Part shown: in pieces, positions 2,181-63,691 of the stretch
Position numbering within the stretch: position 1 is the first letter of the stretch
Layout of the letters: each line of letters opens with the position of its first letter
DNA from: Promethearchaeota archaeon
GTDB taxonomy: Archaea > Asgardarchaeota > Lokiarchaeia > Sigyniarchaeales > SOKP01
Assembly (NCBI GenBank): GCA_016839705.1
Contig: JAEOTR010000046.1
Location: forward strand, 41,770-105,769
DNA length: 64,000 bases
Direction of reading: 5' to 3'
Made by a program: the position numbers and the translations under genes
Notes under the pieces: model-generated
What the model was told of the DNA's origin: nothing
The model's input: the letters and a program-made list of their open reading frames with translations, nothing else
Database searches by the model: none

Positions 2181-2963
2181 CTAGAATATATATTTTCGAT
2201 AGGTTTTTAGAAAAGATATAAATTTGTATATAGATGGTAGTTCAAAAATAACCACAGAGAAAAGATTAATTGATATGAAAACAATTATTTCACTTTTCAA
2301 AATATAGAAAATGGTTAATGTAGAACCGCTTTGGAACGTGAAGAGATAAATATCGAAATTTAAATACAGTATTAACCCAAAACAAATAATTAAACCAACA
2401 AGGGAGAAAATAATTATCTGGTTTTCAACCTCAATTAATCCGATAATTAAATTAATTGCTAAAAATAAAATTGTTAGCATAATAAAGATTCTGGAGGTAT
2501 TTATCCATGATTTGAAAGAGGTATTCTGGACTTCTAGATTTATGCTAGAAATTGGCCAAAGCAGAGCTGTGCTCAAATTTAATAAAGAAATTATTGGCAT
2601 AATAATTACAGCTAAAATAGAAATGAAAAAAGCACGTATCGTCATAAATCTACTAATTATTAAAGAACTCACCCCCTCATTTTTTGCGGATTCCAACATA
2701 GCTTCAATTTTCTTTTGAATTTCAATAGGAAAATTTTTCTTTGTTAACATAAGCTGAATGTTGAGTTCAGGGAAATTAGAAATTAACTCTTTTAGCTGAC
2801 CATACCCTATATTGTATCTTTGTCTGGTACTTTTTGATCCACTCCATAAATAGATCAATTCTTTTTCTTCATCCAAAATCACGCACATATCATGTGATAA
2901 TAGTGCATGTTCTTCTTCTCTCCACTGAGATTTGGAATCATCAAAAATGAATGTTCTCAGCAT
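2181..2963 (-). CDS. Gelsolin-like domain fused to about 4 TM helices
   Basis: LLSHDMCVILDEEKELIYLWSGSKST resembles the gelsolin-repeat core; four hydrophobic segments follow. Confidence 0.6.
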   Translation of the reverse strand: MLRTFIFDDSKSQWREEEHALLSHDMCVILDEEKELIYLWSGSKSTRQRYNIGYGQLKELISNFPELNIQLMLTKKNFPIEIQKKIEAMLESAKNEGVSSLIISRFMTIRAFFISILAVIIMPIISLLNLSTALLWPISSINLEVQNTSFKSWINTSRIFIMLTILFLAINLIIGLIEVENQIIIFSLVGLIICFGLILYLNFDIYLFTFQSGSTLTIFYILKSEIIVFISINLFSVVIFELPSIYKFISFLKTYRKYIF

Positions 2964-56358: not shown

Positions 56359-57504
56359 TTAGAAGCATCTGTGTATTACTTGAGGACCCATTTCCTTGTA
56401 CTCCCTTCTCGTGACCCACATGCGGTGAAATGTTTTTAGAGATGAGAGAATTGAGCCACCAATCCATACGGAATACATACGCTCTGGAGGTGCGATAATC
56501 TTTACATCAACGGATTCTGGAATCTGTTCTTTAATTTCCTTGGTTAAGCGTTCCTTAATACCAGGGAACATTGTAGAACCACCAGAAAGAACTATATTGC
56601 TATAAAGGTCTCTTCGAAGGTCAACATCGCATTCTGAAATAGCTCCAACGATAACATCATCTAAAGGCTCCAACTCTTTACCGATTACTGAAGGATTGAA
56701 GAAACATTCAGGTGCTAAAAATCTTTCAACACCAACATTAATAGTTTCACCATCAGGAAGCATATAGCTCTTTTCCATTCCAGCGACTTTCTTTGATAGC
56801 ATCATCTCTTTTTCTGGATCAATAGCTACATAACAGAGCTTTTCCTTAATATCTCTAACTATTTCTTTCTCTGCTGATGTGGTAAAAGAGTATCCTTTTT
56901 GCCTGAGAAGCCTCTGTAAATATGTTGTAATATCTCGCCCAGCAAGATCAATTCTTTGGATTGCATGACTTAAAGCAAATCCTTCGAAGATTGGTACGAC
57001 GTGAGAAACACCATCACCAATATCTATAACACACCCGGTAGTACGGCCAGAAGCGTATAAAGATAAAACTGCTTGCATGGCTACATAAAGAGCAGGTGTA
57101 TTAAATGTTTCAAACATGATTTCAGCCATTTTTTCTCGGTTTGGCCGTGGATTTAAAGGTGCTTCAGTTAAGAGTACTGGATGTTCGCTCGGATCAATAC
57201 GGAGGTCTGTGTAAAAGGTGTAATGCCAGATTTTCTCCATAGCGGTCCAATCTTCTATGATACCATGTTCAACAGGGAACATGAGTTTTAATACACCTTT
57301 AAGCTGCATGGCCTCTTCTCCGATATAGTATTCCCGTGTATAATGCTCGACATCAGTCATTATAGACTCATATTTGGGATAACCAATTAGAGTTGGGAAA
57401 ACGGAACGTGGTTGATCTTCTCCAGCAAAACCATTTTTAGAGATTCCCGTACCATTATCCACCACAAGGGCTTTGGCGTTTAAAAAGCTTTCTTCTTCTG
57501 CCAT
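56359..57504 (-). CDS. Lokiactin (Asgard actin)
   Basis: [63 protein letters not shown]. Confidence 0.97.
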
Positions 57505-60330: not shown

Positions 60331-60939
60331 TTAGAGCACAACATCAAGTCCAATATTTTCTCCGCAGAAGTTACAAATTTTCAATTTCTTTGAAAAGAGT
60401 TGACCACAATGTTTGCATACTTGCAAATCTCTCTCGATTATTGCTTTAACTACGTTTAAAAAAGCTTCCTCTACATTTTCTCCCGTTTTCGAAGATGTGC
60501 CTACGGGTTCCCCATAGCATTTAAATTTTTCACTTATTTTAAGAGCATCGGCTTTAGATATCTCCCGATTCTCTTTTAAATCGATTTTTGTACCGATAAT
60601 TATCTTAATTATATCTTTGGAATTTTCATCAATGATTTTAACCCAGTTTCTAATATCTTCTAAAGTTGATTTATCTGTAGTATCATATAATAATAAAGCT
60701 GCTGAAGCCCCTTTCACATAAGCCGGAAGGAGGATACGATATTTTTCTTCACCACCAAAATCCCAAATGCTTAACTCAATCTTGAAATTTTCTTTAAAAT
60801 TGACCTCTTTTCTTTTGAAAGCGACACCGATGGTTCCTTGTGTGGTTTCACTAAACGAATTATCACAATAACGAGTAATAAGAGAACTTTTCCCTACGTC
60901 TTTAGCGCCTGCTACGACAATCTTGTATTTTAACATCAA
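60331..60939 (-). CDS. Rab-like small GTPase with C-terminal zinc ribbon
   Basis: GAKDVGKS, TIGVAF, WDFGGE, TKID, SSK; CKHC-x10-CNFC. Confidence 0.9.
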   Translation of the reverse strand: MMLKYKIVVAGAKDVGKSSLITRYCDNSFSETTQGTIGVAFKRKEVNFKENFKIELSIWDFGGEEKYRILLPAYVKGASAALLLYDTTDKSTLEDIRNWVKIIDENSKDIIKIIIGTKIDLKENREISKADALKISEKFKCYGEPVGTSSKTGENVEEAFLNVVKAIIERDLQVCKHCGQLFSKKLKICNFCGENIGLDVVL

Positions 60940-61057: not shown

Positions 61058-61624
61058 TTATTCATTTTTATTTAAGTAATCATCTATCCAGAGCTCCATA
61101 AGAACCTCGTCATAATATTGTGAATCCATATAAAACTGTTTTTTTCTCACACCGATTGTTTCAAAACCTACTTTCTCATAGAGATTTAAAGCTCTTTCAT
61201 TAGTTGAAAAGCAGCTTAAAATTATTTTTTCTTTATTATTCAATATTTTTGATTCTCGAATCGCAAGATCAATTAAGTTGAATCCAATACCTAAATCGCG
61301 ATATTCTTTTTTTACAATAATTCCTAAAGTTCCTACATGTAACGCCGCATCCCAATTTGAATTGGAAATTTCACATTGTCCAATAATGTTATGAGGAATT
61401 TTATTATTTTGATTTTCTGCTATAACACAGACTTCTTTTTCCTTTTTAATATTATGGTACCAAGAATCTTTTTCTAGTTGAGATCTAACAGGAAAAAAGA
61501 TAGGTATATAAATTCCTTCATCTACAACCTCATTGAAGTTATTCCAGACACCTTCAACATCTGATTTACTTAGATGCCTAAGAGTGATCTCTTCACCTGT
61601 TTTCAACTCTAAAATCCTCTTCAT
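61058..61624 (-). CDS. GNAT acetyltransferase
   Basis: YRDLGIG, NERALNLYEKVGF. Confidence 0.9.
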   Translation of the reverse strand: MKRILELKTGEEITLRHLSKSDVEGVWNNFNEVVDEGIYIPIFFPVRSQLEKDSWYHNIKKEKEVCVIAENQNNKIPHNIIGQCEISNSNWDAALHVGTLGIIVKKEYRDLGIGFNLIDLAIRESKILNNKEKIILSCFSTNERALNLYEKVGFETIGVRKKQFYMDSQYYDEVLMELWIDDYLNKNE

Positions 61625-61668
61625 TAGGTAAATATAAATTTTTATAATTTTAATCTTATGGTAATATT

Positions 61669-62100
61669 ATGGAAAAAAAAAATGAAGAGCCTTCAAAAGA
61701 AGAAGAAGATAATGATATACCAACACATCACAAAAAACCTGTTGCGAAGGATTTAGTCACTTTAAAACATGTAGAAACAAAAAAACAAGAAATAAGCCCA
61801 GAAACTCGTAGTCTTGCACAAACATTAAAAGAAAGTTATATTGAACACGATCAGTTTGAACGACTTTCAAATGATGAAATCACTATCCTTGAAACGTTTA
61901 TGGGGAAAAGATTGTTTTTAGAGAGAATTGCGATAATTGCTAACCAGTCTAGGGTACCCTTAGGGATACCTGGTTTTAAGAAAGCAGAATTAGAAAAGAT
62001 TCTTGAAGACTTAATTTCGAAAGGATATATTCAAGCTGAACTTGTTGGGGCTAAAAATGTGTATTTCCTTACGGAACGGGGAAAGTATCGTGTTCAATAA
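61669..62100 (+). CDS. Winged-helix protein with disordered N-terminus carrying an LKHVET motif
   Basis: C-terminal LEDLISKGYI...YFLTERG winged helix; charged low-complexity N-terminus. Confidence 0.7.
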   Translation: MEKKNEEPSKEEEDNDIPTHHKKPVAKDLVTLKHVETKKQEISPETRSLAQTLKESYIEHDQFERLSNDEITILETFMGKRLFLERIAIIANQSRVPLGIPGFKKAELEKILEDLISKGYIQAELVGAKNVYFLTERGKYRVQ

Positions 62101-62190: not shown

Positions 62191-63267
62191 TTGGTTGAAT
62201 TTATTGATATACTAAATTTAGTTATTCTTTCAATATCTTTAATTTTAATAATAGTTGCAGTCATTCTCTTAATCCTTAATTTTCTTGCGAATAAACATAT
62301 TCATATGCTTTATTTAATGATAGCATGGATTTCCTTATTGATTAATAATATCTTCTATATGATTTCTTATGTTTTTTTATATTCAAACACTTTAGCGTTT
62401 ATTGATAACTTTTTTGCTATATTTGGTTCGCTTTTTATAGTAATCTTTGGGGAATCTATTTCAAGAAAAACGCCAAGTATTAAAAAATTAATCTGGTTTT
62501 CGATTTTTATCGGATTGTATTCTTATAGTTCATTTCTTAACTATATTATTTATCCTCTGGCTTCAATTCCAGAAAATATCGTCGCTCTTAATACAACTAT
62601 TCAAGTTTATAGTTTTTTAATTTTAATGTTAACAGGGAGTTTTTTAATGCCTTTTTATTTATTTAAAATTTATAGATTTGCTCCCAGAAAACTGAAAAAT
62701 GATACATTCATATCATTTATTGGGGGAATTGTTTTTGGTATAATCGCACCGATATTGCTTATTAGCTTACGGGAAGCAAGTACTTTATTCATTCTATCCA
62801 GCTCAGTCGGGATGTTAATAATAGTTTCAGCAATTTTTATTAAAAATCCAAAATTAGCGTTTATTTTACCTTTCAAAGTTATGAGATTAAGTGTGATTTA
62901 TTCAGATCGTGGTACTCTGTTATTCTCCCATAATTGGAAATCTGGGAGAGAAATAAAAGGTGATGATCTTTTTTCTGCGATGTTTCAAGGAATTATTATG
63001 ATCTTAAGAGAATCCTTAGGAAAAGGAGATCTGCAAGAAATAAATTTGGAGAAAGCTATCGTTATAGCTCACAAAAGTACGCAATTTCCTCTTGTCTATA
63101 TTTTAATTGCTACAAGTACTTCCAAATCTCTAAAAAATGGTTTGAATATGTTTGTCAAACGTTTTGAAACGAAATTTAATCATGAAATAGATAAAGCTAT
63201 CATTTCCGGTCGAGTTTTACCTGCATCTGAGATTATATCAGATACTTTTTCTTTTTTACCTGATTGA
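62191..63267 (+). CDS. About 7-TM membrane protein with C-terminal longin-like cytoplasmic domain
   Basis: Seven hydrophobic segments, then RLSVI...GTLLFSH.W...DLFSAMFQGI..ILRESL. Confidence 0.65.
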   Translation: MVEFIDILNLVILSISLILIIVAVILLILNFLANKHIHMLYLMIAWISLLINNIFYMISYVFLYSNTLAFIDNFFAIFGSLFIVIFGESISRKTPSIKKLIWFSIFIGLYSYSSFLNYIIYPLASIPENIVALNTTIQVYSFLILMLTGSFLMPFYLFKIYRFAPRKLKNDTFISFIGGIVFGIIAPILLISLREASTLFILSSSVGMLIIVSAIFIKNPKLAFILPFKVMRLSVIYSDRGTLLFSHNWKSGREIKGDDLFSAMFQGIIMILRESLGKGDLQEINLEKAIVIAHKSTQFPLVYILIATSTSKSLKNGLNMFVKRFETKFNHEIDKAIISGRVLPASEIISDTFSFLPD

Positions 63268-63388: not shown

Positions 63389-63691
63389 TTACTCTTTTTT
63401 TAGGATTAGTCTGTGTATAGGGATATCTTGAAATTCGCCACTCGGATTGTCTCTTCTAATAGTTAATGGCAGGATTCCCGCTCTCAATTCCAGCATCGCT
63501 AGTTTGATGGGGTCTATTATCTCTGTAGGTTTCTCGATTAACAAAGGTGCACCAAAACTCAATTGTAACGCACGAGCTCCCACGATCCTTGCCTTCTCGT
63601 ATCTTGTCAAAAAGATCGGTCCAATTTTAACATACTCTCTGACTTTTTTATAGAGTTCACGTAATTCTCGAGATTCTAAAAAACTAGACAC
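63389..63691 (-). CDS. rpo6: RNA polymerase subunit Rpo6 (K)
   Basis: LTRYEKARIVGARALQL.GAP, DPI.LA..EL, PLTIRR. Confidence 0.95.
   Translation of the reverse strand: MSSFLESRELRELYKKVREYVKIGPIFLTRYEKARIVGARALQLSFGAPLLIEKPTEIIDPIKLAMLELRAGILPLTIRRDNPSGEFQDIPIHRLILKKE

What the first reader, a model, noticed from the sequence alone, without database searches (positions are those of the whole stretch)
61669..62100. Beta-thymosin/WH2-like actin-binding motif fused to a winged helix, about 4 kb from lokiactin
Seen: a disordered charged N-terminus contains VAKDLVT-LKHVETKKQE (LKHVET begins at 61762), followed by a winged-helix domain. Established: LKKTET/LKHVET is the core G-actin-binding motif of beta-thymosins and WH2 domains. 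Inference: a candidate Asgard actin-monomer binder linking actin to DNA or to a winged-helix protein scaffold. Caveats: the motif is short, and the upstream amphipathic helix typical of WH2 is short and preceded by a Pro.
Basis: partly seen in the sequence, partly recalled or inferred. Interest (0 to 1): 0.7.

Follow-up and report, generated by a model that had tools for sequence, protein, structure and literature searches.

The report
Asgard winged-helix protein with actin hook
A small, unstudied protein of Asgard archaea (the closest prokaryotic relatives of eukaryotes) carries a strongly conserved short peptide that probably grips actin at the same spot as eukaryotic actin regulators do, which would add a new kind of actin partner to the few known in these organisms.

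Summary
Observation confirmed. The 143-aa ORF has LKHVET at 61762, a C-terminal winged helix, and lies 4.2 kb from lokiactin. The hexamer alone is chance-level in this proteome (2 found, 1.4 expected). Its conservation is not: among motif-bearing orthologues LKHV shows 77% pairwise identity, against 36% for the winged helix and 9-14% for the flanks. It is kept in 41 of 57 sampled orthologues, in two Asgard classes, and varies within the WH2 range (LKHV, LKKV, LKPV, LRPV). A profile of the motif alone hits one PDB sequence, an N-WASP WH2/thymosin chimera (E 0.065). The complex model puts it on actin's canonical LKKT site: score 0.68, best control 0.01; that mark was reached by 58 of 80 solved and 2 of 110 mismatched pairs, and the pass may be from memory. 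It is not a WH2 domain or beta-thymosin: the adjacent amphipathic helix is missing and both Pfam models fail. Linkage to lokiactin holds in one family only. Best reading (about 0.6): a helix-less WH2-like hook that tethers a winged helix of unknown target weakly to actin. I found no paper on it, and no earlier scan note on the motif. Testable in cultivated P. syntrophicum (DSAG12_01469).

The parts
61669..62100 (+). Gene for the 143-aa protein; single copy, conserved across Lokiarchaeia and present in further Asgard lineages
61669..61740 (+). Residues 1-24: charged, disordered, unconserved (9% pairwise identity). Some relatives carry a distal amphipathic helix here; this copy does not
61744..61788 (+). 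Residues 26-40: conserved linear motif A[KR][DE]x[VI]xL[KT][HK]VE[TV]KKQ, the candidate actin hook
61762..61773 (+). LKHV core (residues 32-35), WH2-like LKK(T/V) signature; modelled on lokiactin G28-D30, S351, I352
61798..61851 (+). Residues 44-61: helix of low sequence conservation; residues 45-53 touch actin in the model
61864..62094 (+). Residues 66-142: winged-helix domain of PadR/RosR and Cdc6/Orc1 type, with invariant N92 and near-invariant R95
61625..61668 (.). 44-bp AT-rich spacer shared head to head with the GNAT gene, with a conserved TTTTTATAA box; probably a bidirectional promoter (inference)
61058..61624 (-). GNAT acetyltransferase, the most constant neighbour within the order
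56359..57504 (-). Lokiactin, the predicted partner
63389..63691 (-). rpo6 (RNA polymerase subunit), conserved convergent neighbour

Best explanation
The protein has two modules. Residues 25-43 are a linear motif, unstructured on its own, that binds lokiactin in extended form along the path used by the LKKT segment of WH2 domains, thymosin and the gelsolin linker: Leu32 at I345/S344, His34 and Val35 on the D24-D25 loop, then on towards D56-K61 (eukaryotic numbering). Lacking the helix that fills the barbed-end cleft, it should bind weakly and act as a tether or adaptor, not as a sequestering or nucleating factor. It would bring its winged helix, and whatever that binds, to actin. The winged helix more likely binds a protein than DNA. 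Shown: motif, conservation, fold. Modelled: the actin contact. Inferred: weak affinity, tether role, the winged helix's partner.
For: Core motif about twice as conserved as the folded domain (0.77 versus 0.36; flanks 0.09 and 0.14). Present in four families of the window's order, in a sister family of the class, and in family f19 of another class; 41 of 57 sampled orthologues. Variants LKHV, LKKV, LRHV, LKPV, LRPV, LKRV keep Leu and Val/Thr and allow Pro in the middle, as WH2 motifs do (own knowledge). LKHV is the motif of Heimdall 2DGel and FKHV that of human gelsolin (PMC9433394); LKHAET that of actobindin (PMC2132640). A motif-only profile returns one of 177,635 PDB sequences at E up to 10: 3M3N chain W, whose aligned stretches read as WH2 and thymosin segments, E 0.065. 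Complex model: 0.68 in three runs, best of 3 controls 0.01; the mark was reached by 58 of 80 solved complexes and 2 of 110 mismatched pairs; runs share at least 87% of contacts; partner pLDDT 68-69. The interface maps to G23-P32, D56, E57, K61, E93, Y143-T148, I341-L349. The motif does not fold onto its own winged helix in monomer models.
Against: Many WH2-actin and thymosin-actin structures are solved, so the model's pass may show likeness only; no control carried an LKxV motif. The PDB hit is not significant and sums three repeats. These lines all stem from one resemblance and are not independent. No WH2-type helix next to the motif in any of 65 rows. Position 2 is T, S, Q, V or E in over a third of rows, whereas K-to-E changes abolish thymosin cross-linking (PMC2132640). 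The motif is lost several times (at least 5 changes on the tree) in lineages that keep actin with an almost unchanged site. The gene was not found in L. ossiferum or H. repetitus, and L. ossiferum has an actin cytoskeleton. The conservation figures come from rows chosen for having the motif. No experimental data.
Confidence: 0.6

Rival explanations
1. The motif is a real binding peptide but for another partner (the GNAT, RNA polymerase, a roadblock or GTPase protein), and the WH2 likeness is coincidence picked out of a whole proteome.
For: LKxV-type strings occur at chance level in this proteome. GNAT and rpo6 are more constant neighbours than actin. The conserved stretch is wider than the WH2 signature (A26, K27, D28, Q40). 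The motif is lost while actin stays.
Against: The four most conserved positions are exactly the WH2 signature and vary within its range. The f19 orthologues keep the motif but lack the GNAT and rpo6 neighbours. Unrelated controls score 0.00-0.01 where actin scores 0.68.
Confidence: 0.25
2. The protein is a DNA-binding regulator (PadR/RosR-like) whose N-terminal arm serves self-association, for example by pairing as a strand across a dimer; actin is not involved.
For: Best structural matches are DNA-binding regulators: RosR Z 13.5, rmsd 1.4 over 78 residues, then MarR/PadR proteins. The gene shares a short spacer with a GNAT gene, a usual regulator layout. Alternating hydrophobic residues V30, L32 and V35 could form a strand.
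Against: The domain has no net positive charge (mean -0.2). The recognition helix and wing hold no conserved basic residue across lineages; the conserved polar residues are D69, N92, R95, T135. A shared fold shows no function. Homodimers could not be modelled (one job only).
Confidence: 0.12
3. The motif is not functional: low-complexity K/E-rich sequence that happens to look alike.
For: Lost in several lineages; short.
Against: More conserved than the folded domain across lineages whose proteins are 20-45% identical; 120 of 120 close homologues keep it.
Confidence: 0.03

Closest known systems
WH2 domain (Pfam PF02205; WASP, WAVE, WIP, Spire)
   Same: LKK(T/V)-type core, hydrophobic residue two places before the Leu, disordered setting, same modelled site on actin
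   Different: No 9-10 residue helix before the motif, which PMC7407642 names as the hallmark; no Pfam match; archaeal; joined to a winged helix
Beta-thymosin (PF01290) and actobindin
   Same: Hexamer LKHVET resembles LKKTET and LKHAET; a helix follows the motif and touches actin in the model
   Different: No N-terminal helix or thymosin linker; sixth position is mostly Val in close relatives; no Pfam match; part of a larger folded protein
WH2-like linker of gelsolin and of Asgard 2DGels (LKHV, LRRV, LVDV, LKDV; PMC9433394, PMC7444086, 10.1101/2025.11.30.690169)
   Same: The same four residues as Heimdall 2DGel; a motif without its own WH2 helix; shown to bind actin in Asgard proteins
   Different: In gelsolins domain 1 supplies the cleft-binding helix; here no gelsolin domain is present. 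These were the only Asgard carriers that I found in the library
PadR/RosR/MarR and Cdc6/Orc1 C-terminal winged helices
   Same: Fold: RosR Z 13.5, Cdc6/Orc1 (2qby) Z 10.0 over 88 residues; Atlas Cdc6 winged-helix clusters TM 0.55-0.58
   Different: Identity 15-24%; below all Pfam cut-offs; no AAA+ domain or C-terminal dimer helices; no conserved basic recognition surface
Plasmid segregation adaptors (TubR, AspA, ParR)
   Same: Idea of a small DNA-binding fold coupled to a cytomotive filament by a flexible tail (own knowledge); TubR and AspA appear among the fold matches
   Different: Chromosomal single-copy gene; no centromere-like repeats seen beside it; DNA binding not shown; fold likeness is generic

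Membership tests
WH2 domain | LKK(T/V)-type tetrapeptide | tested here: met
   LKHV, conserved; variants LKKV, LKPV, LRPV, LKRV
WH2 domain | Amphipathic helix of 9-10 residues directly before the motif | tested here: not met
   0 of 65 rows have the pattern; 13 have a helix pattern ending about 12-16 residues upstream, not this copy; no helix in monomer models
WH2 domain | Match to Pfam PF02205 | tested here: not met
   No match for ten N-terminal fragments, nor at this locus in the genome search
WH2 domain | Binds G-actin with the motif on D24/D25 and I341/I345 | tested here: inconclusive
   Model passes (0.68 versus best control 0.01; 58 of 80 solved and 2 of 110 mismatched pairs reach the mark) with that geometry, possibly from memory; no measurement
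Beta-thymosin | N-terminal helix plus conserved linker before LKKTET | tested here: not met
   Absent; PF01290 gives no match in the genome
Beta-thymosin | Second helix after the motif that reaches the pointed face of actin | tested here: inconclusive
   Helix 44-61 exists, residues 45-53 touch actin in the model, but it is poorly conserved (14%)
Beta-thymosin | Sequesters actin monomers | not testable with these tools
   Needs a pyrene-actin assay
Gelsolin family (2DGel) | Gelsolin domain(s) flanking the motif | tested here: not met
   No PF00626 match at this locus; the genome's gelsolins lie elsewhere
Winged-helix superfamily | Three-helix bundle with a beta-hairpin wing | tested here: met
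   H68-76, H84-98, H105-118, strands 121-126 and 129-134; Z up to 13.5
PadR-like transcription regulators | Pfam PF03551 above cut-off | tested here: not met
   13.6 bits against a cut-off of 27 for this protein; weak matches in 33 of 58 members
PadR-like transcription regulators | Sequence-specific DNA binding as a dimer | not testable with these tools
   Only indirect: neutral domain, no conserved basic wing

The most novel reading that the evidence does not exclude
The winged helix binds DNA and the arm binds lokiactin, so that the protein couples actin to the chromosome in Asgard archaea: either an actin-sensing transcription factor or an adaptor for actin-based DNA positioning, built on a free-standing precursor of the WH2 motif.
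Probability: 0.13. Interest if true: 0.9.

Novelty: new variant of a known kind. Interest (0 to 1): 0.62.

Why it matters
Known Asgard actin regulators are mainly profilins and gelsolins (10.1101/2025.11.30.690169), and the WH2-like motif has been described there only inside gelsolins. A carrier outside the gelsolins, kept in at least two Asgard classes, would show that the LKKT segment already worked as a portable actin hook before eukaryotes. That bears on the origin of WH2 and thymosin modules, which drive eukaryotic actin nucleation. The claim is cheap to test: a 46-residue peptide, rabbit or Asgard actin, and an orthologue in a cultivated organism.

Tried and rejected
Pfam WH2 and Thymosin: no match. 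Other carriers of the extended motif in this genome: none above noise. Synteny as support: lokiactin lies 3-8.4 kb away in 16 of 17 same-family loci with at least 5 kb of upstream flank, but in 0 of 9 loci of other families with about 9 kb of upstream flank and in none of the f19 loci; rejected as evidence of function. Co-occurrence of motif and actin: none, motif-less lineages keep actin. Actins of motif-less f20/f21 genomes carry F36W and Q67N in the modelled interface, but two other motif-less lineages do not, so it is not counted. Expression: the only RNA run is assembled into a 37-kb contig across all genes and shows nothing. Lokiactin co-IP in L. ossiferum cannot speak: the gene was not found in that genome, where GNAT and rpo6 are adjacent. 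Weak profile hits in f31, f16 and second hits in f1 are other winged helices; f16 is uncertain. Longer forms: one fused copy only, weak search. Intramolecular folding of the motif: not seen in two models. Bacterial promoter scan: at chance.

Full report
Observation. The ORF at 61669-62100 (+) encodes 143 residues, with L32 of LKHVET at 61762. Homologues named in the databases are Promethearchaeota/Lokiarchaeia hypothetical proteins. Two AlphaFold2 models leave residues 1-43 without secondary structure, give a helix at 44-61 and a confident winged helix at 68-142. Lokiactin starts 4165 bases upstream on the other strand. The description is accurate.

Is the match more than chance? Not by itself. 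In this genome's ORFs the thymosin-like hexamer pattern occurs twice against 1.4 expected, and the looser five-residue pattern 23 times against 22.6. The case rests on conservation.

Distribution. The gene is single-copy here and was found in 137 of 161 genomes of the class. Profile searches add clear orthologues in three families outside the class (f19 19/19, f20 5/5, f21 5/6); an f20 protein is labelled Jordarchaeales and an f7 protein Helarchaeota by NCBI. P. syntrophicum has it as DSAG12_01469, with the motif as LTHVET. It was not found in L. ossiferum or H. repetitus; in L. ossiferum rpo6 and the GNAT gene are direct neighbours.

Conservation of the motif. All 120 closest homologues keep L-x-H-V-[ED]; 91 read LKHVEV and 16 LKHVET. 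In 28 non-redundant motif-bearing rows, mean pairwise identity is 0.77 for residues 32-35 and 0.55 for 26-40, against 0.36 for the winged helix, 0.09 for residues 1-24 and 0.14 for 41-65. These rows were chosen for having the motif. Without that choice, 41 of 57 sampled orthologues carry it (two uncertain f16 rows left out), and a tree of the winged helix needs 7 changes, at least 5 forced by supported branches. The motif sits on both sides of the midpoint root, which suggests an old motif lost several times; the tree has only 83 columns and no real root, so this is inference. In f19, whose proteins are 20-25% identical to the query, the core reads LKHV, LKPV, LRPV or LKRV after [IV]Q. From my own knowledge that is the range seen in WH2 domains.

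Likeness to known actin-binding motifs. The signature is Leu, two basic residues, Thr or Val; Heimdall 2DGel has LKHV and human gelsolin FKHV, with actin Asp25 at the site (PMC9433394). Actobindin has LKHAET (PMC2132640). A profile built from the motif region alone matched one of 177,635 PDB sequences at E up to 10, chain W of 3M3N, listed as N-WASP, in three stretches of which the last reads like thymosin beta-4; E 0.065, no stretch significant alone. Against membership: the hallmark helix before the motif (PMC7407642) is absent in 65 of 65 rows. Thirteen relatives have an amphipathic pattern ending about 12-16 residues upstream, but this copy lacks it. Pfam WH2 and Thymosin do not match.

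Complex model. Lokiactin with residues 17-62, both as alignments, scored 0.68 in three runs; the best of three controls scored 0.01. That mark was reached by 58 of 80 solved complexes and 2 of 110 mismatched pairs, counts that hold only roughly for my own alignments. The runs share at least 87% of contacts and the partner's pLDDT is 68-69. The surest contacts are H34-D30, V35-E29, L32-D30/G28/I352 and T37-V35. In eukaryotic numbering the interface is G23-P32, Y53-E57, S60-I64, E93, Y143-T148 and I341-L349, the path of the LKKT segment in WH2 and thymosin complexes (own knowledge). Many such complexes are solved, so the pass may be from memory, and no control held an LKxV string. The model supports binding; it does not show it.

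Neighbourhood. Lokiactin lies within 3-8.4 kb in 16 of 17 same-family loci with enough flank, but not in other families; in P. syntrophicum the two genes are about 530 kb apart. The constant neighbours within the order are a head-to-head GNAT gene, across a spacer of about 45 bp with a conserved TTTTTATAA box, and rpo6. These two stay linked when the gene is missing, and f19 has other neighbours. Nearness to actin is therefore not evidence of function. An earlier scan note (e1-5588806) described the same neighbourhood in another genome without the motif.

Winged helix. It resembles RosR (Z 13.5, rmsd 1.4, 78 residues), MarR/PadR proteins, and the Cdc6/Orc1 C-terminal domain (Z 10.0, 88 residues; Atlas TM 0.58) at 15-24% identity. 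It is neutral on average. Across all lineages the conserved polar residues are D69, N92 (57 of 57), R95 and T135, not a basic recognition helix or wing. I therefore lean to a protein-binding role, with low confidence.

Mechanism. Most likely (0.6) the arm binds actin through the LKKT site without filling the barbed-end cleft, so weakly, and tethers the winged helix and its partner to actin. Rivals: a motif for another partner (0.25), a self-associating arm of a DNA-binding regulator (0.12), no function (0.03). Points against the best reading: non-basic residues at position 2 in over a third of rows, repeated loss of the motif where actin stays nearly unchanged, and apparent absence of the gene from L. 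ossiferum.

Novelty. It works like the central segment of WH2, thymosin and gelsolin, but belongs to none of these families. In the library searched, Asgard WH2-like motifs are described only within gelsolins, and nothing names this family. The library lacks most subscription papers. Verdict: new variant of a known kind, interest 0.62.

Noticed in passing
window 2184-2963 (-): 260-aa ORF with a weak gelsolin-domain match at its N-terminus (PF00626 E 0.006, below cut-off) followed by about four hydrophobic stretches: a possible membrane-anchored gelsolin-like protein.
   Followed up: partly
L033:15413-17247 (P. syntrophicum); also L032, L040: About 7 kb downstream of the orthologue lie a gene with an eight-proline run and a very divergent actin-like gene (about 26% to lokiactin), conserved in three genomes of family f3; no close counterpart in this genome.
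   Followed up: partly
L124:3-2387 and P0268: One genome (G107) has a second copy of the protein fused behind about 750 residues that include acidic repeats, with no Pfam match; real fusion or assembly artefact not decided.
   Followed up: partly
L127, L128, L129 (actins of f20/f21): These actins have Trp for the otherwise invariant F36 (F31 in eukaryotes) and Asn for Q67.
   Followed up: partly
window 60331-60939 (-): Rab-like GTPase with WDFGGE in switch II and a C-terminal zinc ribbon; noted by the scan in other genomes.
   Followed up: no
window 62191-63267 (+): Membrane protein with no Pfam match, inserted between the gene and rpo6 only in this genome among the loci compared; read by a first-stage note as 7TM plus longin-like domain.
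   Followed up: no
G000 C64:6317-7330: The genome's two-domain gelsolin carries LKDV, the variant reported for L. ossiferum 2DGels.
   Followed up: partly
L072, L075-L077: A separate family of PadR-like winged helices with a C-terminal zinc ribbon (about 210 aa) is common in Lokiarchaeia.
   Followed up: no
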